From assembly GCA_039915165.1 (NCBI GenBank), contig JBDSNU010000017.1, forward strand, positions 2,041-66,040: DNA of 64,000 nt, given 5' to 3'. This document shows, piece after piece, positions 14,577 through 29,811 of the stretch (its first letter is position 1; the number at the start of each line of letters is the position of its first letter). Under the pieces are notes generated by a model. It had not been told where the DNA came from and made no database searches. It worked only from the letters and a program-made list of their open reading frames with translations. The translations under genes were made by a program, and so were the position numbers. Source of the DNA: Minisyncoccota bacterium (GTDB lineage: Bacteria > Patescibacteriota > Minisyncoccia > Phycocordibacterales > UBA9973).

Positions 14577-14984
14577 ATGAAAGCAAAAAACAAAACCATT
14601 ATTATCATTGAGGTATCAGATTTGGTAACAACACTTGAGCATTCAAAAATTATTGCCGCAGGTGGAATACTCGATACAGTTACTATTAATGAGAAAAACC
14701 AAATTGAAATTGTGTTTTTAGCAGGTGGCTCTATAGAAGGTATTGAGAAAATAGTTACTGTTGTAAGCGCAGAAACAGAAGCATTTCTTAGTACGCCATT
14801 AGGTGAATTAGATTTGAGTGTATATCTTATCAATCTACTTAAAGCAAAAGATATAGTAATTATTGGCGATATTAAAAAGCATACCTGGGACGAACTTTTA
14901 AAAACCAGGGGATTTGGCGAAAAAGCCGCAAAATCACTAAAGCAGCTACTGGAAGAACACCATGTTTGTTTGACTCAAAAGTAA
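14577..14984 (+). CDS. Hypothetical protein with C-terminal RNAP alpha-CTD-like helix-hairpin-helix domain
   Basis: C-terminus LDLSVYLINLLKAKDIVIIGDIKKHTWDELLKTRGFGEKAAKSLKQLL aligns to E. coli RpoA CTD ([48 protein letters not shown]). Start moved to the ATG at 14577. Confidence 0.5.
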   Translation: MKAKNKTIIIIEVSDLVTTLEHSKIIAAGGILDTVTINEKNQIEIVFLAGGSIEGIEKIVTVVSAETEAFLSTPLGELDLSVYLINLLKAKDIVIIGDIKKHTWDELLKTRGFGEKAAKSLKQLLEEHHVCLTQK

Positions 14985-15033: not shown

Positions 15034-15177
15034 TATTTTGTGTGTACGCCCTGTCGCTCTTCGAGCTATGAGGTGGGCCCACCGCGAAGCATGAGGTCTT
15101 CGAATGCGAAGTGGTGACCCCACTGCGTGGCTTTCAGAACTTTTAAAGCAAAGTGATTATATAAAAAGTAGTATTAA
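15034..15177 (+). repeat. Cassette-boundary repeat, copy A
   Basis: TTTATTTTGTGTGTACGCC...GTGGTGACCCCACTGCGTGGCTTTCAGAACT...GTGATTATATAAAAAGTAGTATTA. Contains an internal duplication of a CATGAGGT...GCGAAG unit. Sits between convergent terminators. Confidence 0.7.
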
Positions 15178-15252
15178 TTCTCTGAGGATATTGATGAAAT
15201 AAAAAAGAGCATCACGTTAATTCGTAATGCTCTTTACTGTTTTTGAAATCCC

Positions 15253-15717
15253 TTATACAAGCTCTGTGCCGTTCTGTATCGCGAAGCGGAAGCCTCGTGA
15301 TTTAACGTAGCCTTCGAGTATGTCTACCATAGATTGACTGATACCGCGGAACTTTGTCAGCTCGGTTGCAGGCACGGAAAGCATGTCAGAAAGATACACC
15401 CAACCGCTTGCCCTTACTGCCAGACCAATGCGCGTAACACTGTTCTTGTTACCAACGGTATGGTCATGGAAGTCAATCATGAAGTCGCGCAGAGGTATCC
15501 CTTTGGCGTTCTCCATCATTTCCTGACGTTCGGAAATCTCCCTCTTCGTTAGCTTCCTCGCAAATGCAAGGTTTACGAAGATTTTATCAGGCAGGTTCGT
15601 GTTGATGGTAAAGTTCCTGTCTCCCGTGATTTTCATTGCTCCCTTTGCAAGGAGCTTAACAAGGTCTTCTTTGCCAATCTCCAGAGTGGCAGAGATGTCG
15701 TTTTTAGTTACTTTCAT
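15253..15717 (-). CDS. Hypothetical protein with C-terminal RNAP alpha-CTD-like domain
   Basis: C-terminus LAVRASGWVYLSDMLSVPATELTKFRGISQSMVDILEGYVKSRGF resembles the alpha-CTD HhH (weaker than its two neighbours). Own hairpin terminator at about 15200-15235. Confidence 0.45.
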   Translation of the reverse strand: MKVTKNDISATLEIGKEDLVKLLAKGAMKITGDRNFTINTNLPDKIFVNLAFARKLTKREISERQEMMENAKGIPLRDFMIDFHDHTVGNKNSVTRIGLAVRASGWVYLSDMLSVPATELTKFRGISQSMVDILEGYVKSRGFRFAIQNGTELV

Positions 15718-15775
15718 CAGTATAGGTTTTTAATGTTTTACATTTTTTATTTGTCCTAACCCTAGCACAAAACAC

Positions 15776-15804
15776 TTGACATGTCAACGTATTGTGGTAA
15801 TGTG
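15776..15804 (+). promoter_or_regulatory. Promoter with palindromic -35 (TTGACATGTCAA)-16-TAATGT
   Basis: Perfect 12-bp palindrome overlapping -35. Near-identical 28-nt copy at 17188-17215. The listed ORF start 15781 is the ATG inside the palindrome. Confidence 0.45.
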
Positions 15805-15906
15805 AAGGAAACACTAAAACCCAATAACGATGATAGACATACCAAATCCGCCCAAACTCGTAAGCGAGGGCCATCTCTCTCCAGAAGGAGCGGAAACACT
15901 CTTAAA

Positions 15907-16479
15907 ATGGAAGAGGCCTTTGACAAGCTCGGCTACGCCGCTGATATAGAGGAGAGCAACTCTGGCGCTGTGCTTCTAAAAAACGGTGACCTGTTATGGT
16001 TCGATTCCAATGCCGCGCCAATTGACGCTGGCGACTACGCACCGTACATCCACGGTCGTCTGACAAGTGACATGAAAGGTAGTATCTGCATTTACGATCC
16101 CGAGCACGGTTCGGAAAGGTCGTTTAAGAAATGGATAACCATGATCGAGGAAGCCGGCTCTCCTGTTAAGGAAGAAGAAACGTATGGCACGTGGGAGGAG
16201 ATATACAATATCGCCGCCAAGTACGCAGACTTCAGGAACAGCATGATTCCGCCTATCGACAACATTGAGGCCAAGGAAAAGTTCCTCGATACCAGCCTCT
16301 ACGATCTGGAGGTAAGCACACGGGTGTTTACCAGCCTTGCTGCGCAGAATATCTTGACCCCGCGCGACCTTTTAGGCTACACGGCTTCAGAACTTTTGAA
16401 ATTTAATAATTTTGGCAAGAAGACCCTTCCTGAGATTGTAGAGATTCTGAAAAGGTATGATCTTCAGCTAAAGGATTGA
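15907..16479 (+). CDS. Hypothetical protein with C-terminal RNAP alpha-CTD-like domain
   Basis: C-terminus DLEVSTRVFTSLAAQNILTPRDLLGYTASELLKFNNFGKKTLPEIVEILKRYDLQL is a strong match to alpha-CTD (ELLK..N.GKK.L.EI). Start moved from 15781 (in promoter) to ATG 15907 after GGAG. GC-rich (about 50%). Confidence 0.55.
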   Translation: MEEAFDKLGYAADIEESNSGAVLLKNGDLLWFDSNAAPIDAGDYAPYIHGRLTSDMKGSICIYDPEHGSERSFKKWITMIEEAGSPVKEEETYGTWEEIYNIAAKYADFRNSMIPPIDNIEAKEKFLDTSLYDLEVSTRVFTSLAAQNILTPRDLLGYTASELLKFNNFGKKTLPEIVEILKRYDLQLKD

Positions 16480-16523
16480 TTTATTCAAACCGCTTAAGCC
16501 CTCTCAGAAATGAGGGAGCTTTT

Positions 16524-16634
16524 TTTATTTGTGCGTGCACCGCATAGCTCGAGGTCTTCGAGAGCGACGTGGTGACCCCACTGCGTGGCTTTCAGAACTT
16601 TGTAGGAATGGTGATTATATAAAAAGTAGTATTA
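16524..16634 (+). repeat. Cassette-boundary repeat, copy B
   Basis: TTTATTTGTGCGTGCACC...CGAGGTCTTCGAGAGCGACGTGGTGACCCCACTGCGTGGCTTTCAGAACT...GTGATTATATAAAAAGTAGTATTA. Confidence 0.7.
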
Positions 16635-16707
16635 CTGTATTGGAAGTGTTAGTAAAATAAAAAAGCTTCACATCTTAATGTGAAGCTTGAAGAATTTGAT
16701 TCATAAC

Positions 16708-17127
16708 TCAGTGCGTCGGGATGACTGTTTCTTTTGTGGTGCTAATTTCCCACCTGAGCTTAAGCGCCCAGCCCTGAGCGTATGAGTCATAAAGACCCTG
16801 CATCTGCTCAAGGGACTTACATTCCATGCGCTTGTCGCCAAGGCCCTGGTCGTATATCCCGATAACCTTATCGTCTTTGCCTAGTACAGGCATAGACGTG
16901 GGTCGGCCATACAGCTCAAGCGGCCTTGAGCCCATCGCTGTGACATTGATGCCTGCGGAGCCCTTGAACCTAATAGATGCTTCATCTGCTATATTTGAAG
17001 CAATAATGGCTTCGTACCAAAAATCAGGATAGCCATCAAATGCATCTTTAACTGTGCGAATGTTTGCTTCCCATTCCTCGGCGGAAGCGCTACCTCTCAT
17101 TAGATCAATAACTTCTTGTCTTGTCAT
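16708..17127 (-). CDS. Hypothetical protein (139 aa)
   Basis: ORF with hairpin terminator (AAGCTTCACAT-CTTAA-TGTGAAGCTT) downstream. No domain recognised. Confidence 0.45.
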   Translation of the reverse strand: MTRQEVIDLMRGSASAEEWEANIRTVKDAFDGYPDFWYEAIIASNIADEASIRFKGSAGINVTAMGSRPLELYGRPTSMPVLGKDDKVIGIYDQGLGDKRMECKSLEQMQGLYDSYAQGWALKLRWEISTTKETVIPTH

Positions 17128-17187
17128 TGCAAATTTATTTAGAGTGAATTAAAAGTACTTTACTGGTTTTATAATAACAGAATGTCC

Positions 17188-17215
17188 TTGACATGTCAAT
17201 GTATTGTGGTAATGT
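17188..17215 (+). promoter_or_regulatory. Second copy of palindromic-operator promoter TTGACATGTCAA-16-TAATGT
   Basis: CCTTGACATGTCAATGTATTGTGGTAATGT, differing by one base from the 15776 copy. Confidence 0.45.
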
Positions 17216-17234
17216 AAAATAAAGTTTTAATTCC

Positions 17235-17870
17235 TTGCGGATGCAGGGTGGCTCACTTGAGCAACGGAGCATGTTCCCAGCTTCAACCTTGGGAATGTTA
17301 TTTCAAAACAATTTTCGGATGGAAATGTTAACTATCAACGACGGTCCCTCAAGGGAGGAGCTGTTCGACTCAATTCGCCGCAGCATTGATGTATGGTTTG
17401 AATTTGCACCTGTGCGTAATGGCCAAGCGCAGGTATTCTCGGTCAAGCGAGTTGTGCTCAATTATGACCAAAGCAACCATTTCTGGCACGTCATTTTCAA
17501 TGTCGGATTCAAGGGAGAGACCCTGCACGGCAAACAGTATCAGGCTTACTATTCAACAGGCAGTCGCAAGGGCTTTACCGTCGAAAAGGAGGTAAGCTTT
17601 GAACTTGTTAAAGGCGAGACTCATCATTATCCGCTCACATCGGGCGAACTGTATGCAATGCTCAAGTATTCAAAGTTATGTCCGACCTTGCACTGGAACA
17701 TGCTACACGCTCGACTTGATAAAGCCATTCCAAACTACCCGCTGACCGAAGACGTGATGAGGAGGCAGAAAAAGCTTCCGCTACTGCTGTCGAAGATAAG
17801 GAAATCCAAGAAACTGGACGCGGTGGAAAAGCACCTTCCCGAAATGATGCAACTGCTTTGCATGCCTTAA
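17235..17870 (+). CDS. Hypothetical protein (start uncertain; listed TTG)
   Basis: 211-aa ORF downstream of the operator-promoter. No domain recognised. Terminator 17884-17918. Confidence 0.45.
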   Translation: MRMQGGSLEQRSMFPASTLGMLFQNNFRMEMLTINDGPSREELFDSIRRSIDVWFEFAPVRNGQAQVFSVKRVVLNYDQSNHFWHVIFNVGFKGETLHGKQYQAYYSTGSRKGFTVEKEVSFELVKGETHHYPLTSGELYAMLKYSKLCPTLHWNMLHARLDKAIPNYPLTEDVMRRQKKLPLLLSKIRKSKKLDAVEKHLPEMMQLLCMP

Positions 17871-17910
17871 TTGCATGCTGCGCCCTGAAACCTAAAACGT
17901 TTCGGGGCTT

Positions 17911-17991
17911 TTTTATTTGCATAAGTTCTGAATACGCAATGTAGTATGTAAAAATATCTTTACATACTAGCGTTTAAAATTTGTGACCCCA
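17911..17991 (+). repeat. Cassette-boundary repeat, copy C (left-arm type 2, truncated after GTGACCCCA)
   Basis: TTTTATTTGCATAAGTTCTGAATACGCAATGTAGTATGTAAAAATATCTTTACATACTAGCGTTTAAAATTTGTGACCCCA, then unrelated sequence. Left arm shared with copy E. Confidence 0.6.
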
Positions 17992-18120
17992 AGACTTGGA
18001 TTTCCGAACTGGTCCAAGACTACTCATTGATCAAGGCGAGCATTTTTGAAATGAAAGAGTTGGATTTCTCTATCAAATAAAAAAGGCGGACATAAAGGTC
18101 CGCCTCTCAATTTACAAATT

Positions 18121-18672
18121 TTAAATTCTTTCCCTCATCCAATCAAATAGTGCCCTGCGGCTTTTGATAACTTCTGTGAGTGACGTAGGTTCAGGGTAAG
18201 GGTCAATGAACGGAGCAGCATCCTTTGTGTGAGGCTTCAGCAGTACAATGCCCGTGAGCGATCCCGCTATCACTGCAGCCATACCAATCACAACGATGAG
18301 GCTCGCGTAAGCGAAAGTGAACGCAATGGGCCCGAAGAACGCATAGTATACGATTGCCATTATCAGGCTAAATCCCAGTCCTGGCCCGATACCGACCCAC
18401 ATATCTCCCATGGTGTCCATAAAATCGTCAAAGAGGTCATCGGATGCATCGTAAGGCTTGTCTTTCTTGTTAACTACAAAGTATGACCCCAATCCGCCAA
18501 GTGCATAGACTGCCACGAGGGTAATTTTTGCAAAAAGGGCGAAATTTGAGGAGTCGTGCTCTAAGCCCCAACCCATCCGGTAAATAAGTACCCCTGCAAG
18601 AACGAATACTGCGAGTTTTGCGATCGCTACCACTGCTTTTTTCAGGAAGCTAAAGTTGAATGTTGTTTTCAT
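18121..18672 (-). CDS. Polytopic membrane protein, hypothetical
   Basis: Four or five predicted TM helices (VVAIAKLAVFVLAGVLIY, ITLVAVYALGGLGSYFVV, etc.). Confidence 0.45.
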   Translation of the reverse strand: MKTTFNFSFLKKAVVAIAKLAVFVLAGVLIYRMGWGLEHDSSNFALFAKITLVAVYALGGLGSYFVVNKKDKPYDASDDLFDDFMDTMGDMWVGIGPGLGFSLIMAIVYYAFFGPIAFTFAYASLIVVIGMAAVIAGSLTGIVLLKPHTKDAAPFIDPYPEPTSLTEVIKSRRALFDWMRERI

Positions 18673-18684
18673 TTTTTTTGTTTT

Positions 18685-19251
18685 TTAAAGAATGTTGTTT
18701 TCAATACCATACACTTTCCTAAGTGCAGTCCGAGCGTCCTCGCCCAGGCGGTCTGCCACGATAAACCAAAACGGTATGCGGCTTTCCCATTGCTCTTCTC
18801 GCGATACGCGCTGGTCAACCTCTAGGGTGTCCAGCAGCATCATCCATTGCAGCTCAACGAACTGCTTGGGCGTGACAGGAAGATTTGTCAGAAGCTCCCT
18901 GTCTAATAAAAAATAGGGTGTGTTTTCCAACACGCTTCGGTCAAAGGACTGCTGCGACATGCGGCAATAGGCATATACTAAGGCTTCTGCCTCAGCGCCA
19001 ATCTTTTCCCGTACTTCGCCACGACGCTCAAGTGAAATTGAGAAGCCGTTGAAGTTTTCAGTGCCGTAAATTGAATGGAAGAGCCCAGCCACTATCGTTG
19101 AGAATGGGCGGTTATACCTTTCCAGATATTTTGCCAAGCCTTTCAGGTGAGGGAGAAACTTTCCGTTAGTGTGCTCGACGTCTGTGACGCCAAGCGTAAG
19201 CAGGTAGTCCGATAACGGACCGTTCAGAAGCGTTTTTTCTTGTGTTGTCAT
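18685..19251 (-). CDS. Hypothetical protein
   Basis: Start moved from the listed TTG at 19278 to the ATG at 19251 (MTTQEKT...). No confident domain. Confidence 0.4.
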   Translation of the reverse strand: MTTQEKTLLNGPLSDYLLTLGVTDVEHTNGKFLPHLKGLAKYLERYNRPFSTIVAGLFHSIYGTENFNGFSISLERRGEVREKIGAEAEALVYAYCRMSQQSFDRSVLENTPYFLLDRELLTNLPVTPKQFVELQWMMLLDTLEVDQRVSREEQWESRIPFWFIVADRLGEDARTALRKVYGIENNIL

Positions 19252-19297
19252 GAGGTTACATTTTTTAACATAATGCAATATATGTTAAAAAATGTCA

Positions 19298-19367
19298 ATG
19301 TTTTGTGACCCCACTGCGTGGCTTTCAGAACTCGTTAAGAACGGTGATTGCATAAAAAGCAGTATTA
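19298..19367 (+). repeat. Cassette-boundary repeat, copy D (right arm only, fused to a promoter fragment)
   Basis: ATGTCAATGTTTTGTGACCCCACTGCGTGGCTTTCAGAACTCGTTAAGAACGGTGATTGCATAAAAAGCAGTATTA. The preceding ATGTCAATGT is a half-copy of the operator-promoter. Confidence 0.6.
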
Positions 19368-19473
19368 TAGAGTTGAGAAACATCAAGGTGGTGTGAAGCT
19401 ATTGAACCTATACGCGTTACTTGACATTTTTCATATAGATGATATTGTAATTTCAAACTTAAAACAAATAAAT

Positions 19474-20037
19474 ATGAATTGGTACTCAATCTTTTACTGG
19501 TTGACCGTAGCGGACAGCGTAAAAAAATTCTTCGATACTACAAGCAATATCTTTACTTGGTTTGCAGTTCTATCATTCCTTGTAGTAGTTGCTACGACAA
19601 TCGGCAAGTCTTATCAGATTTCCGAAAATAGCATTAAAACTCCAGAGGAAGAAGCAACGGACGCTGACGTGAGAAGTTGGGATTTCCTTAAAAGGATATC
19701 TAGCAAATTCTTCTGGTGGATGTTGCCCCTTGCCCTTGTTACATGGCTTGGTTATGTAATGACTCCTACTAAAAAGGACTGTCTGCTGATTGTTGCCGGT
19801 GGTGCTGTTGGAAACTTTATGACCACTGACACTTCCGCAAGGAAACTGCCGTCTGATGTAACCAAGTTTCTGCACTTGAGCTTAAAAAATGAAATTGCGG
19901 GACTCAGCGACACGGCGAAGAAAGAACTCGGCATAACAACTCCGAAAGATGAGTTCTTAAAGAAGGCCGCTAAAATGTCCAAAGAGCAATTGCTGAAATA
20001 CTTACAAGCAGACACAACAGTTTTAAAGGATAACTAA
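19474..20037 (+). CDS. Membrane protein, hypothetical
   Basis: Two TM helices. Start moved to the ATG at 19474 because the listed upstream start lies inside repeat D. Confidence 0.45.
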   Translation: MNWYSIFYWLTVADSVKKFFDTTSNIFTWFAVLSFLVVVATTIGKSYQISENSIKTPEEEATDADVRSWDFLKRISSKFFWWMLPLALVTWLGYVMTPTKKDCLLIVAGGAVGNFMTTDTSARKLPSDVTKFLHLSLKNEIAGLSDTAKKELGITTPKDEFLKKAAKMSKEQLLKYLQADTTVLKDN

Positions 20038-20085
20038 CTCCTTATTATTACTATCCTAAACCGCACTTTACGAAAGGGCGGTTTT

Positions 20086-20218
20086 TTATTTGCAAAAATT
20101 CTGAAGACGCATTTGGGTATATAAAAATATCTTTACAGGATAGCGTTTAAAATCTGTGACCCCACTGCGTGGCTTTCAGAACTTATGAGGAGCAGTGATT
20201 ATATAAAAAGTAGTATTA
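20086..20218 (+). repeat. Cassette-boundary repeat, copy E (full length, carries both arms)
   Basis: TTTTTTATTTGCAAAAATTCTGAAGACGCA...TAAAAATATCTTTACAGGATAGCGTTTAAAATCTGTGACCCCACTGCGTGGCTTTCAGAACT...GTGATTATATAAAAAGTAGTATTA. Confidence 0.7.
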
Positions 20219-20246
20219 TTGAACTAGTACAGCTTGTGAAATAATT

Positions 20247-20275
20247 TTGACAAAAATCTATTTTTGAAATCTAAT
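20247..20275 (+). promoter_or_regulatory. Promoter TTGACA-17-TCTAAT for umuDC
   Basis: Canonical -35 with a plausible -10, 18 nt upstream of the SOS box. Confidence 0.4.
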
Positions 20276-20292
20276 ACAGCTTCTATTTACAA

Positions 20293-20308
20293 GTGAACGT
20301 TTGTTCAC
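20293..20308 (+). promoter_or_regulatory. SOS (LexA/DinR-type) box GTGAAC-N4-GTTCAC
   Basis: Perfect inverted repeat GTGAACgtttGTTCAC matching the GAAC-N4-GTTC Cheo-box consensus, placed between promoter and umuD. Confidence 0.5.
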
Positions 20309-20750
20309 TAAACTAACCTCTGTGAAAGTATCTATTTTAACGACCTTACCTCATTCCCACCATAAAGTTATCCCTATTGTATTAGCCAAGGTACAAGCGG
20401 GTTTTCCTTCACCTGCCGATGATTATATTGAATCTGCATTGAATATTAACGACCTTTTTCAAGTGGATGAATCAAGTACCTTCTTTGTTCGTGTTGAAGG
20501 AAGTTCAATGATAAATGCAGGAATCATGAATGGAGACATATTGTGTGTCCGTAGAGATTTAGAGCCAAAAGAAGGCAAGATTGTCATTGCTATTATCGAT
20601 AGCGAATTCACCGTTAAAAGATTTATGAAAAAAGGCAAGAGAGTAATATTCGAAGCAGCTAATGATGACTACCCATCAATTGAGCCCCAGGACGGTCAGA
20701 GCGTCGAGATATGGGGTGTTGTAACAGGGTTTGCCCGAACGTTTAAATAA
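20301..20750 (+). CDS. umuD: UmuD-like S24 peptidase (translesion synthesis accessory subunit); start uncertain
   Basis: QAGFPSPADDYIE, catalytic GSSM serine and FTVKRF lysine in UmuD/LexA-C-terminal spacing. No N-terminal HTH. The listed TTG start lies inside the SOS box. Confidence 0.7.
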   Translation: MFTKLTSVKVSILTTLPHSHHKVIPIVLAKVQAGFPSPADDYIESALNINDLFQVDESSTFFVRVEGSSMINAGIMNGDILCVRRDLEPKEGKIVIAIIDSEFTVKRFMKKGKRVIFEAANDDYPSIEPQDGQSVEIWGVVTGFARTFK

Positions 20751-20751
20751 T

Positions 20752-22098
20752 ATGTACAAGAAGCTCTACGCCCTCATAGACTGCTCCTCATTCTATTGCT
20801 CTTGTGAAAGGGCTTTTCGTGCTGACTTAAAAGGAAAGGCAATTTGCGTCCTTTCAAACAACGATGGCTGTATTATTTCTTTAACACCCGATACTAAAGC
20901 ACTAGGGTTTAAAATGGGCACACCGTACTATCAAATTAAAGATGATCTCGCCCAAAAAGGGGTTGCGGTCTTTTCATCTAACTATTGTCTCTACGCTGAT
21001 ATGAGCAAGCGTATTGTGAAGATAATACGATCGTTTAGTGATTTTGTTGAGCAATACTCAATTGATGAATCGTTTGTACAGTTTGAAGCAAATACAAATA
21101 ATATAGAACAAGAAAGAATACGGTTACATGCTCTGGCTGAAGAGATACATTTTACTATCCTAAAGAAAACGGGAGTGCCAGTAAGAGTTTCAATTGCTGA
21201 AACAAAAACATTGGCTAAGGTTGGTAGTGAGTATACAAAGTGCCTTATTAAGCAAGGTATTGTCCCAGCAGTGTGCTTTTGGGAACACCCAGACAAAGAT
21301 GGCTATATGAAAACACTTCCCGTAAATGATGTATGGGGCATAGGACGACAATGGAGTAAAAAGTTAGAAATGTCAGGAATTAAAACAGCAAAAGATTTAT
21401 CAATGGCTAATCCTGACTTACTGAAAAAGAATTACTCTATTGTTATGGAGCGCACAGCAAGAGAGCTTTCTGGATTCTCTTGCATATTGTTTGAACTAGT
21501 TGCTCCTGAACGTAAAAGCCTGGTACGAAGTCGCATGTTTTCTCATAAGATAACTGATGCCAAATACCTTAAACAGGCTATTTCGTTCCACCTAGCTCGA
21601 GCCAGTGAGAAACTACGGAGTGATAAACTTATGGCTACTGAACTATCAATATTTATGTCCACTGGTAGACACACCGAAATAACTAAATATAGTTATGCAC
21701 ATCAGACATTACTTCGTCCAACGAATGACATAATAATTCTGGCAGAAGTCGCAGACAAACTATTTAAAGAATGTTATGTGAAAAATGACAAATTTGGTAA
21801 TGAATATAAGTATTCAAAAGCAGGAGTATCACTTAGTGGATTTTCAAGTATTGATAAACAGAGTGAACCACTTTTTGATATTGGTATTACAGAAAGACCC
21901 GCGTTAATGAAAATACTTGATGGGCTTAATAGAAAGTTTGGAAAGCATACCGTAGTTCTCGCTTCTATGGGGGTCCCAAAAAAACTACAGAAAATAGAAG
22001 CAGCTAAAGACGATGCTATTGAATGGGGTATGAAGAGAGGGTTAATGAGTAAGCGGTTTACAACAGTTTGGGAAGAAATTTTACAAGTTAAAATATAA
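20752..22098 (+). CDS. umuC: UmuC-like Y-family DNA polymerase
   Basis: MYKKLYALIDCSSFYCSCERAFRADLKGKAICVLSNNDGCIISLTPDTKALGFKMGTP matches the UmuC N-terminus. The ATG at 20752 is 2 nt after the umuD stop. Confidence 0.8.
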   Translation: MYKKLYALIDCSSFYCSCERAFRADLKGKAICVLSNNDGCIISLTPDTKALGFKMGTPYYQIKDDLAQKGVAVFSSNYCLYADMSKRIVKIIRSFSDFVEQYSIDESFVQFEANTNNIEQERIRLHALAEEIHFTILKKTGVPVRVSIAETKTLAKVGSEYTKCLIKQGIVPAVCFWEHPDKDGYMKTLPVNDVWGIGRQWSKKLEMSGIKTAKDLSMANPDLLKKNYSIVMERTARELSGFSCILFELVAPERKSLVRSRMFSHKITDAKYLKQAISFHLARASEKLRSDKLMATELSIFMSTGRHTEITKYSYAHQTLLRPTNDIIILAEVADKLFKECYVKNDKFGNEYKYSKAGVSLSGFSSIDKQSEPLFDIGITERPALMKILDGLNRKFGKHTVVLASMGVPKKLQKIEAAKDDAIEWGMKRGLMSKRFTTVWEEILQVKI

Positions 22099-22318
22099 GT
22101 ACTAATTATTATCATTAGTATCCTGTAATTTAGAAAGCACCTTATTTAATTTGATAAATTGTTCTTGTAACTGGTTATTTAGGTATTCAATATTTAGATA
22201 TATTTTAGTGATTTCTTCATTCATATAGGCAAGAATAGCAAATAGGTGATAAAGAAAATATCAAGAAATAATAAACTAAATAAAGTTATTTAAGTTTTTC
22301 CTTATAAACCTTTTCATA

Positions 22319-22900
22319 CTAATTGCTCACCAGCAGCAGGTCGTACTGTGCCTGAAGAAGGTCAAAGGTGTTTCGGTACTTTACATAGTCAGCGACGCCG
22401 TTCGCCTTGTCTATCGCATACTGGGCGTTAAGGATGGCCATCTGCTTTTTTGTATTCTGCAGTTTCCACGCCGTCGTGGTTTCCAGCTCCTGCTGCGCTC
22501 TCGCTGCGGCATTGGCACGGTCTGCGGCGTCTTTCATTGCCTTCAGACTAGCCGCCTCGTCATCGCGCTGCTTTTGCGCTAAAGCTGCCTGACCAGCCAT
22601 TTCAGCGTTTACCCTGATTTGGTCTGACGTGAGCTGTGGCGTTGTCGGAACAGCTGGAGCTGCTGTTGCGGGAGCGACGACTTGCGGCTGAACAACCTTG
22701 GCGGATGTGGTTGTCTTTGCCTCGGTCTTTGCCGTAGGTACGATACTTTGAGCTGTTGGCGTTACGGTAGCTGTAGCAGGCTGTTGAGCCTGAACTTCTA
22801 CAGGAACAGGAACTTGGACAGCTACAGGTGCCGCAGGTGCGGTATGTATACCGATAGCAATCAATAGTGAGCTGAAGATTTTGTGGAATATATTAAACAT
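22319..22900 (-). CDS. Secreted Ala/Pro/Val-rich protein with C-terminal coiled coil, hypothetical
   Basis: Signal peptide, low-complexity APAAPVAVQVPVPVEVQAQQPATA region, then a heptad-rich C-terminus. GC-rich relative to flanks. Confidence 0.45.
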   Translation of the reverse strand: MFNIFHKIFSSLLIAIGIHTAPAAPVAVQVPVPVEVQAQQPATATVTPTAQSIVPTAKTEAKTTTSAKVVQPQVVAPATAAPAVPTTPQLTSDQIRVNAEMAGQAALAQKQRDDEAASLKAMKDAADRANAAARAQQELETTTAWKLQNTKKQMAILNAQYAIDKANGVADYVKYRNTFDLLQAQYDLLLVSN

Positions 22901-22915
22901 TTTATTTTAAATTAA

Positions 22916-23137
22916 CTAATAGCTTAAGTTGCGAATTGAGTCATCTAGACTTGAGAAAGAATCTTCTAATATATTTCTTGTTCTTATTGAATTACTGTCT
23001 GATATGTCAGTGTTTTGAAAAATAGACTCATTGATCGTGCCTAGTCTGGTGTATATCATGACCAAGAGCAATGTAATAAAAAGCTTAAACCAGTTTTCTT
23101 TTAGAAATTCTATAGTTGTATGTGTTTTTGTTTGCAT
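22916..23137 (-). CDS. Small membrane protein, hypothetical
   Basis: 73 aa with one TM helix (WFKLFITLLLVMIYT). Confidence 0.3.
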   Translation of the reverse strand: MQTKTHTTIEFLKENWFKLFITLLLVMIYTRLGTINESIFQNTDISDSNSIRTRNILEDSFSSLDDSIRNLSY

Positions 23138-23438
23138 GGATATTGAAGGGATAATGTTTATATTTGGTGATTGATGACCCCTATAATGGGATCAGTGGAC
23201 GCAAAAATCCCACCACAAGGGTGAGAGCTTTCGCCCTCCAATACTCGTTTCCAAGTACGGCCTCTTAAGCACTCCCGTATGGCGGGGTTTTTACTTAAGA
23301 GGACTTTTGCCATGCCGTTGATTGCTCAAGGGGTTAGGCCATATCTATTGATTTGTACCCCAAAACTATACATTGTAGAGATTGTATTTACAATGGCACA
23401 TAGGTATATAATGTTCACAACGTTCACAACACTCACGC

Positions 23439-24977
23439 GTGCAATATGATATGAAGCCTGTATACCATGACTATGACAATAAGACCTATGTAGAATACCT
23501 TGATGAGGCTATATCTATCTTGATAATGACGGGTGACCAGGAGACTATGGAGAAGCTGGCTTCAAAATTATCAGGCGTTCATTCTGAGATTTTTTGGAAA
23601 ATTATCGGGTACAAAACGCTTCAAAGGATAGCAAAAGCTGGACATGCCAAGGTTTATTCAGAAAACCAGTATGATTTTGAACGACTTCATGAGTTTCGTG
23701 AACTTAAGACGGAAACTGATAGCTTATATGAAGAATATCTGGCATTGATCGAACCCGCAATCTTCCTCGAGGCAATTGCCAATATTGCATATCAATTAGC
23801 TAGATTGGTGCTAAAAAAACAAGTTGTGATTCATATAGACTTTTTAAAAGCCTGGTTGGAATGGCACATGTATCTCACTAACAAAAATAAAAACAAACGG
23901 AAAGGTGAGAAAATAAAGGAAAAACTCAGGGCTATACTTGGCGACAAGATAGATGATTTTGAGAAAATCCAACAAGAATACAGCGATAATATGCAAAGGG
24001 TAAAAGAAGGCAGGGCTAATCTTTTTGTTAATATCGACAAAGAGGTTATGACTGATGACTGTCCTTCACATGAAAACCTTTTCCTACCCCGTAGGCTTGA
24101 TGCCTCTGATATTTTAGTTGTGGAGGAACATACCAAATGCGTTGAAATTGAAGGACAAATTTATTCCCTTCGAGACTATTATGAAATAATTGAAAATAAG
24201 ATTGACCAGTCATGGCTTCAAAGCACGGACTTGCTCAAGCGGATTATCATTGTCTACCTTATCAAGAAATGTCAGAATGGGGACGAAAAAGCGTTCAATA
24301 AACTCTTTAGTTTTTACGTTACCAAAGCTGAGCATTTAGCAGTATCGTTTATCCGTCATAAAGCTCAAGGCAGAAATAAACTAGCTTTTAGTGAGGGAGG
24401 AAATCTGTCTGAAAGTGCTGCAAAAAGTGCAATCTGGACAATAATGGAAAAGCTGCTCAGAGGTGACAACCCGACTAATATCTACAAATATTTAGATAAG
24501 AATAGGAACGGGAAAAAGGGGGTTGATTTTTTAAACAAAAGACCCTACGCAGCCTTAGAAGAGTCCTACGGACTGCTTTTTCAATTGGTTAATAATCAGT
24601 ACAACATGCTAGTCCAGTACCAGTCAGACCTTATCCAAAGCACTAAAGATCCGCTGCACAGGCATAAGACAGCAAAGAAATCATCGACCAGAAAGCAGTA
24701 CATGCAAAGTCTGTTTCGTATTAGCCAGCACTATCTTCGTCATGCCGAGTATTCGTCCACAATATTCACTATGTTCGATCCGCTTGCCCTGCTCAGTATC
24801 TCTACCCTGCATAATAAAAACCTTTTCAACCCGACTAATAAGGGAAACCTGACGATATGGCTGTTCGGGGTGAAGGGTGTTTTCCCTGGGAAACTTATGG
24901 AGGGCCTTAATGATTGGTTTAAGGCAAATACCAAAACAAAGAATGGTAAAAGAATTGTCCCCGAAGATGATTACTGA
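23439..24977 (+). CDS. Hypothetical protein; weak sigma-70 region-2-like segment
   Basis: 512 aa. LLKRIIIVYLIKKCQNGDEKAFNKLFSFYVTKAEHLAVSFI resembles sigma-70 region 2 (GD..AF..L...Y). Otherwise unassigned. Confidence 0.4.
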   Translation: MQYDMKPVYHDYDNKTYVEYLDEAISILIMTGDQETMEKLASKLSGVHSEIFWKIIGYKTLQRIAKAGHAKVYSENQYDFERLHEFRELKTETDSLYEEYLALIEPAIFLEAIANIAYQLARLVLKKQVVIHIDFLKAWLEWHMYLTNKNKNKRKGEKIKEKLRAILGDKIDDFEKIQQEYSDNMQRVKEGRANLFVNIDKEVMTDDCPSHENLFLPRRLDASDILVVEEHTKCVEIEGQIYSLRDYYEIIENKIDQSWLQSTDLLKRIIIVYLIKKCQNGDEKAFNKLFSFYVTKAEHLAVSFIRHKAQGRNKLAFSEGGNLSESAAKSAIWTIMEKLLRGDNPTNIYKYLDKNRNGKKGVDFLNKRPYAALEESYGLLFQLVNNQYNMLVQYQSDLIQSTKDPLHRHKTAKKSSTRKQYMQSLFRISQHYLRHAEYSSTIFTMFDPLALLSISTLHNKNLFNPTNKGNLTIWLFGVKGVFPGKLMEGLNDWFKANTKTKNGKRIVPEDDY

Positions 24978-25160
24978 GCCGCTTTATTTTCAGAAGAAGA
25001 CTTTGATGACAACATTCACAGGGACAAACTAGTATAAAAGTGCGAAAAAACGATCTGAAATAAACCCTTATTTTAAGCCATTTTGTGGCTCTTTTTTTTA
25101 TTTTCCATATATAGAGCATACCTGAACGTTTTTCAGGCTTTAGTAACAAATAATAATAAA

Positions 25161-25427
25161 ATGAGAACCACCACACACTTACCCAATGACGAATACGAAG
25201 AGCTTTTCGACATTAACCTCGTTGCTGCTTGCGTACTCGACGACATACCAATCGAAGCCTATAACAGAGATCCTAAAAATGCACCGCGTGTAGGTTTTTT
25301 ACTTAGAAAAAGCAATAAATTGAAAAACCTTATAAACCTCTACCTTTCAGGATTGCTGACTGTGGAGCCAAAACAGTTTGCTGCAGAAATTAGAAACCTG
25401 AAAGCCCGAACTAAAATTCCTTATTAA
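25161..25427 (+). CDS. Small hypothetical protein (88 aa)
   Basis: ATG at 25161 (MRTTTHLPNDEYEELFDIN...). The listed start at 25083 extends upstream without support. Confidence 0.35.
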   Translation: MRTTTHLPNDEYEELFDINLVAACVLDDIPIEAYNRDPKNAPRVGFLLRKSNKLKNLINLYLSGLLTVEPKQFAAEIRNLKARTKIPY

Positions 25428-25447
25428 ATAACAAACACTTAAATGAT

Positions 25448-26812
25448 ATGAAAAATGAACAAAAAGAAATTCTTAAAACAACAGTAGTTACGCCTGACAC
25501 CCTATATGAGATGGTTTATGACGACATTGGTGAAACCACATCCTTTATAAAGCAATCCAAAGACGGCGATTTCGAGGCGGGAGTAGAAAAGGTTGAGATA
25601 AACGGTATGACATACACTCCTCTGCCGCCTGACTATATTCTTTTGAAGAAAAAGGTCATCTTATTCCCATCAAAAGTTTCTCCATATGTAAGCGAGGAGC
25701 AGCTTCTTGAAGAGGTTAGGTGCTTTATACACAAATACTTAGACATCTCCGAAGTGTTTGAGCAAATTGCTACTTATTACGTCTTGTTCTCATGGATGTA
25801 TGACCGTTTCAACGAAGTGCCTTACCTAAGAGCACTCGGCGACTTTGGCAGCGGCAAATCACGTTTTCTTCAGACTATTGGAATCATTTGTTATAAGCCC
25901 GTATTCACAGGCGGAGCAACTACTCCGAGTCCGATATTTCGAATTATCGACGAGGTTAAGGGGACGCTTATCATAGACGAAGCCGACTTCAAGTTCTCGG
26001 ATATGAGCTCTGAAATCGTGAAGATTCTGAACACTGGATACCAGAAGGGCATGCCAGTGCTTCGCTCCGAGGGCAAGGGCACTTTCGAGGTAAAGGCATA
26101 CGATGTCTTCTGTCCCAAGATCATTGCTACCCGCGAGACATTCACCGACAAGGCCCTTGAGAGCCGTTTTCTGATAGAGGAAATGGGCACGAGCAAGCTT
26201 CGCAACGACATACCCCGAACGCTCGATGAGAGCTTCTACAGCGACGCTGAGGGCATCAGGAACAAGCTCCTCATGTGGAGACTGGATAACTATTTCGAAC
26301 CAATCGAGAGGTGCAACGACATCATCGAGGGTATCCACCCACGTCTCAACCAGATCGTCATGCCCCTGCTCTCAATCATAAAAAGCGAGGCAATCCGCGA
26401 GCGACTCAAGACCTTTATCATCCAGTACAACACCGACCTGACTGCCGACCGAGGACTGTCATGGGAAAGCGACATTGTCTTTGCCATCCTGAAGCTCGAG
26501 CACGAGACAGGCAGCATGGAGATAACGGTGAAGCAGATAACGGAGGAGGTAAACAAGGAAAGCGACATTGGCGAAGACACGCTTCAGCCCCGAAAGGTGG
26601 GATGGTATCTGCGCGCACGCCTGCAGCTCAAGCCGTACAAGACACGCAAGGGATTCGTGCTCTCATTCAAGGAAAACCGAAAACGATTGGACATGTGGAA
26701 AGAGCGGTTTGCCATCTCTGACGCGGACATTCGCGGCGAACATGTGAACGATGTGAAGGTCGTAGAGAGCAGTGAATTTGTCATGCCAACAGCGCAGGAG
26801 CTGGGGTTTTAG
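25448..26812 (+). CDS. P-loop NTPase of the phage/plasmid primase-helicase (SF3/D5/VirE-like) type, putative replication protein
   Basis: Walker A GDFGSGKS, Walker B LIIDEADF, ATRE sensor-like segment. About 50% GC block. Confidence 0.5.
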   Translation: MKNEQKEILKTTVVTPDTLYEMVYDDIGETTSFIKQSKDGDFEAGVEKVEINGMTYTPLPPDYILLKKKVILFPSKVSPYVSEEQLLEEVRCFIHKYLDISEVFEQIATYYVLFSWMYDRFNEVPYLRALGDFGSGKSRFLQTIGIICYKPVFTGGATTPSPIFRIIDEVKGTLIIDEADFKFSDMSSEIVKILNTGYQKGMPVLRSEGKGTFEVKAYDVFCPKIIATRETFTDKALESRFLIEEMGTSKLRNDIPRTLDESFYSDAEGIRNKLLMWRLDNYFEPIERCNDIIEGIHPRLNQIVMPLLSIIKSEAIRERLKTFIIQYNTDLTADRGLSWESDIVFAILKLEHETGSMEITVKQITEEVNKESDIGEDTLQPRKVGWYLRARLQLKPYKTRKGFVLSFKENRKRLDMWKERFAISDADIRGEHVNDVKVVESSEFVMPTAQELGF

Positions 26813-26815
26813 GCT

Positions 26816-27734: not shown

Positions 27735-27889
27735 CGAAAATGGTATTATGAGTGAGCTACACAACAGACCAATAAACGACGATTTTTTTGTACTCGAAGA
27801 GGGGCAAGGTGGTTCGTTGTGTAGCAACAAAGAGTCGTTTCCTTGTCCCTCTTTGGGTGTAAGGAACATCCTTACAAAAGATACTATCG

Positions 27890-29718: not shown

Positions 29719-29811
29719 ATAGTAAATGGCGTGAGTAACGTGACCATTATAAATAAAATTTGGAAAAAGTAAACCGTGCTTGTTTTTGCAAGCACGGCAG
29801 TGGGAGGGAAT

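What the first reader, a model, noticed from the sequence alone, without database searches (positions are those of the whole stretch)
15034..20218. Five-copy intergenic repeat family partitions one- and two-gene cassettes into an array
Copies A (15034-15177), B (16524-16634), C (17911-17991), D (19298-19367) and E (20086-20218) all lie on the + strand in the same orientation. Four of them share the 28-nt core GTGACCCCACTGCGTGGCTTTCAGAACT, about 10 variable nt, then GTGATTATATAAAAAGTAGTATTA. Two alternative left arms exist. Type 1 (TTTATTTGTG-YGT-RC-RCC...GAGGTCTTCGA) is in A and B. Type 2 (TTTATTTGCA-WAA-RTTCTGAA-KACGCA...TAAAAATATCTTTACA...TAGCGTTTAAAAT-YTGTGACCCCA) is in C and E. Each repeat begins exactly at the T-tract of a gene-specific hairpin terminator, and the hairpin stem sequence differs every time. 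The units between repeats hold one or two genes in varying orientation, each with its own promoter and terminator. Copy A contains an internal tandem duplication. This resembles a cassette array such as an integron or tandem island, but the repeats are neither attC-like 59-be elements nor CRISPR repeats.
Basis: seen in the sequence. Interest (0 to 1): 0.8.

Follow-up and report, generated by a model that had tools for sequence, protein, structure and literature searches.

The report
Integration scars of stacked genomic islands
The five "intergenic repeats" are junction scars left where mobile elements inserted one after another into the same tRNA-Glu gene. Each scar is a 10-base piece of the tRNA end fused to the cut-off last 29-32 codons of a serine recombinase gene, so the "cassette array" is a stack of integrated islands whose recombinase splits its own gene.

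Summary
The 28-nt core occurs exactly four times, with 0 expected by chance. A fifth copy, C, is a diverged but full-length core. All five lie on the + strand within 5.2 kb.

The repeats are not non-coding boundary elements. Their first 10 nt (GTGACCCCAC) are the reverse complement of the 3' end of tRNA-Glu. The next ~80 nt form an open frame, (G/C)DPTAWLSEL....DYIKSSI..L..L.K*. This is the C-terminal tail of a large serine recombinase (LSR).

The window's only LSR gene (27890-29707) runs in the same frame through the same 10-mer into the intact tRNA-Glu (29643-29719, - strand). Intact homologues elsewhere carry the tail contiguously.

Each unit is therefore an attL-type junction: displaced tRNA end plus the split-off recombinase 3' end. 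The array is a stack of elements integrated at tRNA-Glu in a CPR (Paceibacterota/Nomurabacteria-like) genome.

Unit E to the tRNA (9.5 kb: umuDC ... LSR) looks like the complete element. The four segments between units A and E are small and have no recombinase.

Tandem islands at tRNA genes are known. An attP inside a bacterial serine recombinase's own reading frame, and 0.6-2.7-kb recombinase-less cassettes with conserved ends, are the unusual parts.

Excision, the order of insertions and any activity of the small cassettes were not shown.

The parts
14577..14984 (+). 135-aa protein with an RNA polymerase alpha C-terminal domain, followed by a terminator. This is the sequence left of unit A. 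It may belong to an older element or to the chromosome; this is unresolved.
   Evidence: Pfam PF03118, E 5.8e-12. G+C 33-35%.
15041..15112 (+). Left arm type 1 of unit A. It is G+C-rich and of unresolved origin.
   Evidence: 44 nt are about 86% identical to arm B. The recombinase C-terminal profile does not extend into it.
15113..15202 (+). Unit A. It contains the tRNA-Glu-derived 10-mer (15114-15123) and an orphan recombinase tail frame, GDPTAWLSELLKQSDYIKSSINSLRILMK*.
   Evidence: Tail profile E 1e-11.
15203..16530 (.). Cassette 1. It holds a 154-aa gene (15253-15717, -) and a 190-aa alpha-CTD-domain gene (15907-16479, +) with a divergent promoter region and a terminator at each end.
   Evidence: G+C 46%. 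A homologue of the 154-aa gene lies next to the unit in L024.
16531..16660 (+). Unit B. It comprises arm type 1 (16531-16570), the 10-mer (16572-16581) and the tail frame 16571-16660, GDPTAWLSELCRNGDYIKSSITVLEVLVK*.
   Evidence: Tail profile E 8.7e-11.
16661..17917 (.). Cassette 2. It holds a 139-aa gene (16708-17127, -) and a 183-aa gene (17319-17870, +). Its 32-37-nt promoter/operator block is also present in cassette 1.
   Evidence: (family D4).
17918..18080 (+). Unit C. It comprises arm type 2 (17918-17981), a variant 10-mer GTGACCCCAA (17983-17992) and a diverged tail frame 17982-18080, CDPKTWISELVQDYSLIKASIFEMKELDFSIK*.
   Evidence: Tail profile E 5.5e-9. The arm is about 80% identical to the flank of the genuine tRNA-Glu in L018.
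18081..19303 (.). Cassette 3. It holds a 183-aa membrane protein gene (18121-18672, -) and a DUF6817 protein gene (18685-19251, -). Their promoter region abuts unit D.
   Evidence: PF20680, E 6.5e-24.
19304..19396 (+). Unit D. It has no arm. It comprises the 10-mer (19305-19314) and the tail frame CDPTAWLSELVKNGDCIKSSIIELRNIKVV*.
   Evidence: Tail profile E 1.5e-11.
19397..20090 (.). Cassette 4. It holds its own promoter, a 187-aa membrane protein gene (19474-20037, +) and a terminator.
   Evidence: It has the same layout as the 0.63-kb element abutting tRNA-Glu in L018.
20091..20244 (+). Unit E. It comprises arm type 2 (20091-20154), the 10-mer (20156-20165) and the tail frame 20155-20244, CDPTAWLSELMRSSDYIKSSIIELVQLVK*. 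It is the presumed attL of the recombinase-bearing element.
   Evidence: Tail profile E 6.9e-12.
20245..27889 (.). Cargo of the recombinase-bearing element. It includes umuD (20301-20750) and umuC (20731-22098) with an SOS box, a LOOT RNA (23223-23340, -) and several genes without family matches.
27890..29707 (+). Large serine recombinase gene. Its reading frame runs ...NAMGDPT through the 10-mer GTGACCCCAC (29646-29655) and on into the tRNA gene (...GNRTPINGLKSRRPNR*).
   Evidence: Pfam Resolvase and Recombinase domains. PHROG integrase, E 1e-54. Translation. Sequence. Coordinates.
29643..29719 (-). Intact tRNA-Glu(ttc). It is the integration target and the attR side. Its 3' end is the reverse complement of the first 10 nt of every unit.

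Best explanation
Each repeat unit is an attL-type junction made by site-specific integration of a mobile element into the 3' end of tRNA-Glu.

Anatomy of a unit:
- The first 10 nt (GTGACCCCAC) are the overlap shared with the tRNA 3' end.
- The next ~80 nt are the last 26-29 codons of the element's own large serine recombinase gene.
- The element's attachment site (attP) therefore lies inside that gene. Integration detaches the tail to the far end of the element.
- The bulk of the recombinase gene ends up abutting the tRNA and reads on into it.

Origin of the array:
The window holds the products of at least five such insertions at one tRNA-Glu. Unit E to the tRNA (20155-29719) is an apparently complete 9.5-kb element (umuDC ... 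recombinase). The four segments between units A and E are short foreign segments of 0.85-2.7 kb that keep a tail but have no recombinase. They are either remnants of larger elements or recombinase-less mini-elements moved in trans.

Shown here:
- the sequence relationships;
- the reading-frame continuity;
- the tRNA-Glu association in every informative locus;
- the contiguous tail in intact homologues.

Inferred, not shown:
- that the recombinase catalysed these events;
- the order of the insertions;
- whether any part can still excise.
For: 1. tRNA match. The first 10 nt of the units equal the reverse complement of the 3' end of the tRNA-Glu at 29643-29719. The same 10-mer lies at 29646-29655 inside the 3' end of the recombinase ORF.
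2. Frame continuity. The recombinase reads ...AAT GCA ATG GGT GAC CCC AC|G GGG... (NAMGDPT|GNRTP). The units read xGT GAC CCC AC|T GCG TGG CTT TCA GAA CTx (DPT|AWLSEL...).
3. Coding signature. The tail frame is open for at least 29 codons in 24 of 25 unique copies, against 2 and 0 in the other two frames. It ends at a conserved stop. Positional entropy follows codon position 2 < 1 < 3. Changes in the core are synonymous or conservative: ACT>ACC, GCG>GCA, CTT>TTG.
4. Intact homologues. A recombinase C-terminus reconstructed with tail E finds 47 homologues. Eight cover 98-100% of it, and these plus P0017 (92%) carry the tail contiguously, for example P0014 ...FLVCDPTAWLSELLKLGQSIKISLDELYSVINSKAN. 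Integrated ones switch after CDPT into tRNA-encoded residues, for example P0044 ...CDPTGNRTRITGLKSRCPNR.
5. Clean break at the junction. A profile of the last 73 residues of the nine intact homologues matches all 30 unit translations tested (E 2e-13 to 3e-5). The alignments begin at the xCDPT junction.
6. tRNA-Glu association. In all six loci where a tRNA lies to the right of a unit, it is tRNA-Glu on the opposite strand, 0.6-14.5 kb away (window, L004, L014, L016, L018, L024). L024 is a simple 9-kb island: tRNA-Glu overlapped by a recombinase gene at one end and one unit at the other.
7. Arrays elsewhere. Arrays of 2-3 same-orientation units also occur in L002, L011, L013 and L018.
8. Precursor state. 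The sequence left of units C and E is about 80% identical over about 80 nt to the sequence abutting the genuine tRNA-Glu in L018. The predicted pre-insertion arrangement therefore exists in a relative.
9. Break in homology at the unit. One island is found in three metagenome contigs with 99-100% identical proteins to the right of the unit and unrelated sequence to its left. The break falls at the left edge of the 10-mer.
10. Independent acquisitions. The five tails are 48-80% identical to one another and the cargo genes are unrelated. This argues for separate acquisitions rather than local duplication.
Against: - No empty site, circular junction or excision product was found for this genome. 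Other assemblies of the same population show the same order, with contigs breaking at the units.
- Only one recombinase gene is present for five units. Four of the five events therefore need an extra step: deletion, or mobilisation in trans.
- Serine integrases normally recombine only attP with attB. Repeated use of an occupied site requires tolerance of very different left arms (type 1, type 2, none, recombinase 3' end). This was not tested.
- The reconstructed attP and attB show no dyad symmetry above shuffled controls. The crossover dinucleotide cannot be placed.
- The type-1 arms of A and B have no identified origin.
- In L004, L016 and L018 the resident tRNA reads GTGACCCTAC while the units read GTGACCCCAC or GTGAACCCAC. 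The 10-mer of a unit is therefore not always a copy of the tRNA now present.
Confidence: 0.85

Rival explanations
1. Integron-like platform. The units are recombination sites that fold as single-stranded DNA, in the manner of attC. A dedicated integrase inserts promoterless cassettes one by one at them.
For: The units lie in consecutive intergenic regions in one orientation with 1-2 genes between them. Arm type 2 contains an imperfect inverted copy of part of the core, so copy E can draw a long hairpin.
Against: Folding is not better than shuffles for D (z 0.26) and E (z -0.77), and there is no common structure. The arm is absent from D and from many copies elsewhere. No tyrosine integrase was found among the proteins scanned. 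The cassettes have their own promoters and both orientations. The units match a serine recombinase C-terminus from the junction onwards.
Confidence: 0.03
2. Regulatory DNA or a small RNA. The unit is a promoter, an operator or an sRNA gene repeated in front of accessory genes.
For: On the reverse strand, box 2 contains a perfect TATAAT in most copies, and the core is very conserved.
Against: No -35 element lies at a proper distance on either strand (by inspection). No Rfam family matches at gathering or permissive thresholds. The downstream genes have their own promoters and either orientation. Variation follows codon positions and an open frame, not base pairs.
Confidence: 0.03
3. Local duplication. 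One junction plus neighbouring DNA was duplicated in place by unequal or homologous recombination, without repeated site-specific integration.
For: A/B and C/E share longer stretches including their arms (135 nt at 79% and 107 nt at 81%). Cassettes 1 and 2 share a 32-37-nt promoter block.
Against: The cargo proteins of the four cassettes are unrelated apart from a shared alpha-CTD domain at 32% identity. The tails differ by 20-52%, and C belongs to a different tail lineage (DPKTW) that is also seen in L011 and P0036. Similar arrays with different cargo occur in other genomes.
Confidence: 0.06
4. REP/MITE-like dispersed repeat that happens to cluster here.
For: The unit is short, repeated, usually intergenic and often next to terminators.
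Against: There are no other copies in 64 kb. A related MAG has two copies. Only 16 contigs in the metagenome collection carry the 20-mer. The unit has no terminal inverted repeats or target duplications. Its position is tied to tRNA-Glu.
Confidence: 0.01

Closest known systems
Tandem arrays of integrative genetic elements (genomic islands) at tRNA/tmRNA genes
   Same: An intact target gene lies at one end with the recombinase gene beside it. Displaced 3' fragments of the target recur as direct repeats in one orientation, and unrelated cargo lies between them. Repeated integration into a restored site is the accepted origin of such arrays (PMC7192596, read).
   Different: Here the tRNA-derived part of the repeat is only 10 nt. 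Most of the repeat is element-derived coding sequence, the recombinase tail. Four of the five segments have no integrase and are only 0.85-2.7 kb. The recombinase is a serine, not a tyrosine, enzyme. The host is a CPR bacterium.
Dehalococcoides ssrA genomic islands (CcrB-type serine recombinase DsiB)
   Same: A serine recombinase is involved, and tandem islands lie downstream of one small RNA gene. The direct repeats of its 3' end carry extra conserved adjacent bases. Many islands lack an integration module and were proposed to be cis-mobilisable by accretion (PMC3146451, read).
   Different: The target is tRNA-Glu, not tmRNA. In Dehalococcoides the paper places the integration module, beginning with the recombinase gene, adjacent to one island boundary (its attL), and the passages read do not mention a split recombinase gene. 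Here the attachment site lies inside the recombinase reading frame. The repeat is therefore a gene fragment.
SSV-type 'suicidal' integrases of archaeal viruses and plasmids
   Same: The attachment site lies within the recombinase's own gene. Integration into a tRNA gene partitions that gene, and the two parts end up at opposite ends of the integrated element (PMC8371274, read).
   Different: Those are tyrosine recombinases. The review states that self-disrupting recombinases are found only in Archaea. Here the enzyme is a bacterial large serine recombinase. Only the last 26-29 residues (two predicted helices) are detached and replaced by 16 tRNA-encoded residues. The catalytic and DNA-binding domains stay intact, so the enzyme may remain active.
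Integration-dependent immunity of cluster G-type mycobacteriophages (from my own knowledge: Broussard et al. 2013)
   Same: attP lies inside the 3' end of a phage gene. The integrated and free forms therefore encode proteins with different C-termini, which makes integration state a regulatory signal.
   Different: There the split gene is the repressor and the integrase is a tyrosine recombinase. No regulatory consequence has been shown here.
Integron cassette arrays (attC)
   Same: Small units of one or two genes are separated by recurring recombination-site-derived sequences in one orientation.
   Different: There is no IntI, no attC hairpin and no common promoter Pc. The cassettes here have their own promoters and terminators and both orientations. 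The repeats are tRNA and recombinase fragments.

Membership tests
Integrative element at a tRNA gene (attL/attR-bounded island) | Intact tRNA gene at one end, with a site-specific recombinase gene next to it | tested here: met
   tRNA-Glu at 29643-29719 (-) is overlapped by the 3' end of an ORF with Resolvase and Recombinase domains at 27890-29707. L024 and L031 have the same layout.
Integrative element at a tRNA gene (attL/attR-bounded island) | A displaced copy of the tRNA 3' end as a direct repeat at the other end | tested here: met
   GTGACCCCAC occurs at 29646-29655 and at the start of units A, B, D and E. C has GTGACCCCAA. The shared segment is only 10-11 nt.
Integrative element at a tRNA gene (attL/attR-bounded island) | Evidence of mobility: an empty site in a relative, or a circular junction | tested here: inconclusive
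   The predicted pre-insertion arrangement (arm 2 abutting tRNA-Glu) exists in L018. One island occurs with three different left flanks. No empty site or attP junction was obtained for this genome.
Tandem array of integrative elements | Several same-orientation copies of the junction repeat downstream of one target gene, with unrelated DNA between them | tested here: met
   Five units lie on the + strand, 9.5-14.5 kb from the tRNA, with unrelated cargo between them.
Tandem array of integrative elements | Each member carries its own integrase | tested here: not met
   Only one recombinase gene is present. Cassettes 1-4 hold 1-2 genes without recombinase domains.
Self-splitting (SSV-type) integrase | attP lies inside the recombinase ORF, so integration partitions the gene | tested here: met
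   There is in-frame continuity across the 10-mer. Orphan tails lie at the far end of the islands. Intact homologues carry the tail contiguously. This is a sequence inference; recombination was not assayed.
Self-splitting (SSV-type) integrase | Tyrosine recombinase of the SSV family | tested here: not met
   The enzyme has serine recombinase domains PF00239 and PF07508.
Self-splitting (SSV-type) integrase | The split inactivates the enzyme | not testable with these tools
   Only two C-terminal helices are removed. The catalytic, recombinase, zinc-ribbon and coiled-coil regions remain in the 27890-29707 ORF.
Integron | IntI-type tyrosine integrase with attI and Pc next to the array | tested here: not met
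   No Phage_integrase match was found among the proteins scanned between 12.3 and 35.8 kb. ORFs outside that range were not scanned.
Integron | attC sites: imperfect inverted repeats folding as single-stranded hairpins | tested here: not met
   DNA folds of D and E are no better than shuffles, and no structure is shared among the five.
REP/MITE-type dispersed repeat | Many copies scattered over the genome | tested here: not met
   No copy lies outside 15.0-20.3 kb in this window. A related MAG has two copies.
Structured RNA family (Rfam) | Match to a curated covariance model | tested here: not met
   No match was found at the units at gathering or permissive thresholds.

The most novel reading that the evidence does not exclude
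A family of large serine recombinases in CPR bacteria places its attachment site inside its own reading frame. Integration at tRNA-Glu then swaps a conserved two-helix C-terminal tail for a tRNA-encoded peptide. This gives the enzyme a built-in read-out of integration state, for example a directionality or activity switch without a separate factor.

The detached tails, together with conserved right-end arms, would define recombinase-less mini-cassettes of 0.6-2.7 kb. The enzyme could stack these in trans at the tRNA. That would be a gene-capture platform that works like an integron but is built on a serine recombinase and a tRNA gene.
Probability: 0.25. Interest if true: 0.75.

Novelty: new variant of a known kind. 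Interest (0 to 1): 0.55.

Why it matters
- It turns an apparently new "cassette boundary repeat" into something interpretable: junctions of elements stacked at a tRNA gene.
- It gives a simple rule for finding such elements in CPR genomes, where mobile elements are poorly described. Look for an orphan ...DPTAWLSEL... frame on the strand opposite a nearby tRNA-Glu.
- If the inference holds, a recombinase that splits its own gene on integration is not confined to archaeal tyrosine integrases, contrary to a recent review (PMC8371274).
- The tail swap would be a testable candidate for how a serine integrase senses whether it is integrated.
- The small recombinase-less cassettes with conserved ends are candidates for gene capture in trans.
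- The att sequences (tRNA-Glu 3' end plus TGCGTGGCTTTCAGAACT) are directly usable for biochemical tests.

Tried and rejected
- Promoter reading. I looked for -35/-10 arrangements on both strands by inspection of the copies listed. The reverse strand has a perfect TATAAT but no -35. I dropped this idea once the coding frame was seen.
- Structured RNA or single-stranded DNA. Folds of both strands show no shared structure, and z-scores are near 0 for the minimal copy. Rfam gives nothing.
- Xer/dif-like 11-6-11 site, sigma-54 or ECF promoter, hammerhead-like core, IS200/IS605 end, CRISPR repeat. I considered each by inspection and rejected it for lack of the defining symmetry or motifs, and because of the coding pattern.
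- Resemblance of the core to 5S rRNA (UGACCCCA...UCAGAA). This is a partial similarity from recall, and no Rfam 5S match supports it. I rejected it.
- Arms as decayed recombinase 3' ends. This looked suggestive by eye for L004 (GVFRPLSSARTSALYGDPT against NGFRALETRNFLVCDPT). The recombinase profiles do not extend upstream of the junction in the window's A and B, so I do not claim it for this window.
- Dyad symmetry in the reconstructed attP and attB. It is not above shuffles.
- Alternative cassette orders. Exact-protein look-ups returned only the same order, or contigs broken at the units.
- Relatives of the gene beyond the tRNA. The search found only the same genome.
- Relatives of the recombinase in viral contigs. 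None was found, and the 22-mer is absent from viral contigs.
- The 'CGCGACCCCG.CTCGGC' motif seen about 100 nt upstream of units in several loci. It is absent from the window and I did not pursue it.

Full report
**The observation**

The 28-nt core GTGACCCCACTGCGTGGCTTTCAGAACT is present exactly four times (15114, 16572, 19305, 20156), always on the + strand. No further match with up to three mismatches exists in the 64-kb window, and none appeared in 100 shuffles. The repeat finder recovers an 89-nt family in A, B, D and E and the two kinds of left arm: A/B, 135 nt at 79%, and C/E, 107 nt at 81%.

Copy C was described as ending at GTGACCCCA. It is in fact a full-length diverged unit, GTGACCCCAAGACTTGGATTTCCGAACT. 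The genes between the copies are richer in G+C (46% in cassettes 1-3, 40% in cassette 4) than the left flank (35%).

Two details of the finding do not hold. Copy D does not follow a terminator. Tandem Repeats Finder sees no tandem duplication in copy A.

**Host and distribution**

The window carries housekeeping genes and sigma-70-like promoters. Its proteins are recorded under a "Candidatus Paceibacterota" MAG.

An exact 22-mer of the core is found in a Candidatus Nomurabacteria MAG (two contigs) and in one contig binned as Gammaproteobacteria. It is found in no viral contig. A 20-mer of the core is in 16 metagenome contigs. The repeat is therefore rare and low-copy, not a dispersed REP/MITE.

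A DNA profile of the unit finds additional, diverged, same-orientation copies in four of those loci: L018 (48 and 2518), L002 (1748 and 3434), L013 (717 and 1330) and L011 (394, 1197 and 2284). Small arrays are thus a recurring feature.

**What the unit is**

Three observations settle it.

First, the intact tRNA-Glu at 29643-29719 (- strand) has a 3' end whose reverse complement is GTGACCCCAC, the first 10 nt of the core. That same 10-mer (29646-29655) lies inside the 3' end of a large serine recombinase ORF at 27890-29707. The ORF has Resolvase and Recombinase domains and matches a PHROG integrase family. It runs on into the tRNA gene.

Second, the reading frame matches. The recombinase reads GGT GAC CCC AC|G GGG AAT... 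(...NAMGDPT|GNRTPINGLKSRRPNR*). In the same frame every unit reads xGT GAC CCC AC|T GCG TGG CTT TCA GAA CTx and stays open for 29-32 codons to a conserved stop:
- A: GDPTAWLSELLKQSDYIKSSINSLRILMK*
- B: ...CRNGDYIKSSITVLEVLVK*
- C: CDPKTWISELVQDYSLIKASIFEMKELDFSIK*
- D: ...VKNGDCIKSSIIELRNIKVV*
- E: ...MRSSDYIKSSIIELVQLVK*

. Across 25 unique copies from all loci this frame is open for at least 29 codons in 24, against 2 and 0 for the other two frames. Variability follows codon position (2 < 1 < 3). The substitutions seen in the core are synonymous or conservative.

Third, I queried the protein collection with the recombinase C-terminus joined to tail E. Eight homologues cover 98-100% of it, and these plus P0017 (92% coverage) carry the tail contiguously, for example ...KNGFRALETRNFLVCDPTAWLSELLKLGQSIKISLDELYSVINSKAN. 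Others switch after CDPT into tRNA-encoded residues, for example ...CDPTGNRTRITGLKSRCPNR.

A profile of the last 73 residues of the nine intact proteins matches the in-frame translation of all 30 units tested (E 2e-13 to 3e-5; the window's five score between 7e-12 and 5.5e-9). The alignments begin at the xCDPT junction. AlphaFold2 models the tail of an intact homologue as two helices with pLDDT 81-93.

The "variable 10 nt" and "GTGATTATATAAAAAGTAGTATTA" of the finding are therefore codons 11-22 of this tail.

**Context in other loci**

In every locus where a tRNA lies within the sequence to the right of a unit, it is tRNA-Glu on the opposite strand, 0.6-14.5 kb away. These are the window, L004, L014, L016, L018 and L024.

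L024 extends the Nomurabacteria-like contig L003. It shows the simple case: tRNA-Glu overlapped by a 563-aa recombinase gene, about 9 kb of cargo, then a single unit, then chromosomal genes. The cargo gene next to that unit is a 67%-identical homologue of the window's 154-aa cassette-1 gene.

L031 has two recombinase genes in tandem, the second overlapping tRNA-Glu(ttc). There the shared 10-mer is GTGATCCTAC, which still encodes D-P-T.

One island carrying a reverse transcriptase occurs in three metagenomes. Its proteins to the right of the unit are 99-100% identical, while the sequence to the left is unrelated. The break falls at the left edge of the 10-mer.

**Interpretation**

The unit is an attL-type junction: target-derived sequence on the left, a 10-nt overlap with the tRNA 3' end, and the element's distal arm on the right. 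That distal arm is the detached 3' end of the recombinase gene, because attP lies inside that gene.

In the window, unit E to the tRNA (20155-29719) has all the parts of one element: tail, umuDC with an SOS box, a LOOT RNA, unknown genes and the recombinase. Units A-D mark further insertions at the same tRNA.

The left arms fit this reading. Arm type 2 (C, E), including the preceding terminator T-tract, is about 80% identical over about 80 nt to the sequence abutting the genuine tRNA-Glu in L018. The state expected before an insertion therefore exists in a relative.

L018 also has a 0.63-kb element of tail, one 128-aa gene, terminator and arm 2, sitting directly on the tRNA. This is the same layout as the window's cassette 4. 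Likewise, the arm left of the L004 unit matches the flank of the tRNA-Glu in L004 and L016. The type-1 arms of A and B resemble each other (44 nt, about 86%) but have no identified source.

**What is inferred and what is open**

- That the recombinase made these junctions is inferred from sequence only.
- The order of insertions is not determined. New elements entering at the tRNA side and new elements entering at the distal junction both predict the observed structure.
- Four segments lack a recombinase. They may be remnants of larger elements after deletion. Or they may be small recombinase-less elements with conserved ends moved in trans, as proposed for integrase-less islands in Dehalococcoides (PMC3146451). 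I cannot decide between these.
- Serine integrases normally use only attP x attB. Repeated use of an occupied tRNA implies tolerance of very different left arms. The reconstructed attP and attB show no dyad symmetry above shuffles, so the crossover position within or next to the 10-mer is unknown.
- No excision product or empty site was found for this genome. Other assemblies of the same population have the same order and break at the units, and the search for relatives of the gene beyond the tRNA found only the same genome.

**Comparison with known systems**

Tandem arrays of integrative elements at tRNA and tmRNA genes, bounded by direct repeats of the target's 3' end, are well known (PMC7192596). 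The closest described case is the stack of serine-recombinase islands at ssrA in Dehalococcoides, which includes islands without an integration module (PMC3146451).

What differs here is that the repeat is mostly a fragment of the recombinase gene itself. Recombinases whose attachment site lies in their own gene are described for archaeal SSV-type tyrosine integrases. A recent review says they occur only in Archaea (PMC8371274).

The present family is a bacterial serine recombinase, and only its last 26-29 residues are detached and replaced by 16 tRNA-encoded residues. It is therefore an analogue, not a member, and it need not be inactivated. Integrons are similar only in appearance.

**Verdict**

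The "integron-like" reading is not supported, and the "tandem island" alternative is supported.

It is a new variant of a known kind: stacked tRNA-Glu islands of a CPR bacterium whose junction repeats are split-off recombinase tails. Interest is moderate. The array itself is ordinary once explained. The self-splitting serine recombinase and the conserved-end mini-cassettes are worth a test.

Noticed in passing
window 20293-20308: A perfect palindrome GTGAACGTTTGTTCAC lies between a promoter-like TTGACA and umuD-umuC (20301-22098). It contains the Gram-positive-type SOS box GAAC-N4-GTTC at 20295-20306. This suggests LexA control of the element's first cargo operon.
   Followed up: partly
window 23223-23340 (-): A LOOT RNA (Rfam RF03000, 72.4 bits against a gathering score of 46.4) lies inside the recombinase-bearing element, between unknown genes. 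Its association with a mobile element may be informative about this orphan RNA class.
   Followed up: no
window 15775-15811 and 17187-17223: Cassettes 1 and 2 share a 32-37-nt block, CTTGACATGTCAA(C/T)GTATTGTGGTAATGT (89-94% identical), in their divergent promoter regions. The -35-like TTGACA is part of a 12-nt palindrome, TTGACATGTCAA, which looks like a common operator.
   Followed up: no
window 14577-14984, 15907-16479, 15253-15717: Two small proteins carry an RNA polymerase alpha C-terminal domain (E 6e-12 and 2e-14). A third, the 154-aa protein, resembles it weakly (27% over 59 residues, E 0.03). All three lie next to units. Free-standing alpha-CTD proteins as mobile-element cargo are unexplained.
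   Followed up: no
window 17925-17939 and 20100-20112, against the core: Arm type 2 contains an imperfect inverted copy of part of the recombinase-tail DNA: AGTTCTGAA.ACGCA against TGCGTGGCTTTCAGAACT. It sits about 55-70 nt left of the 10-mer. It is also present next to the genuine tRNA-Glu in L018. Its role is unknown.
   Followed up: partly
L005, L006, L011, L018, L019 (about 85-110 nt right of the core): Direct repeats of GTTCAC at a spacing of about 10-11 nt follow the tail in several loci, for example GTTCACTAAGTTCACAATGTTCAC in L006. They may be operator sites of the elements' first cargo genes.
   Followed up: no
L004, L007/L015, L012, L017 (1.3-4.1 kb right of the unit): The island in these loci carries a reverse transcriptase (PF00078, E 1e-23). 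It also carries a 274-287-aa protein that is 68-91% identical between loci in the stretches that align (covering 84 to 286 residues). This looks like a diversity-generating retroelement as cargo.
   Followed up: no
L031 1-831 and 4733-5921: Two recombinase genes of this family lie in tandem. The first is followed by a degenerate fragment of the tRNA-Glu body (GTGATCCTACGGGGAGCGATTTGGAACC). The second overlaps the intact tRNA-Glu(ttc). This arrangement differs from the window's and is not explained by the simple model.
   Followed up: partly
L004, L016, L018 against their units: The resident tRNA-Glu reads GTGACCCTAC at its 3' end, while the units in the same loci read GTGACCCCAC or GTGAACCCAC. 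The 10-mer in a unit therefore does not always copy the tRNA now present.
   Followed up: no
L007, L014, L016, L019, L012 (about 60-130 nt left of the unit): A shared motif, (T)CGCGACCCCG.CTCGGC ... CCG.CTTCACA, with a variable hairpin in between, precedes the units in these loci. It is absent from the window. It may be another kind of element right end.
   Followed up: partly
window 19258-19296: A 39-nt near-palindrome (87%) lies in the promoter region of the DUF6817 gene, immediately left of unit D.
   Followed up: no
window 22319-22900 (-): A 193-aa Ala/Pro/Thr/Gln-rich low-complexity protein is encoded by a segment with 50-58% G+C, inside the otherwise 35-42% G+C element.
   Followed up: no
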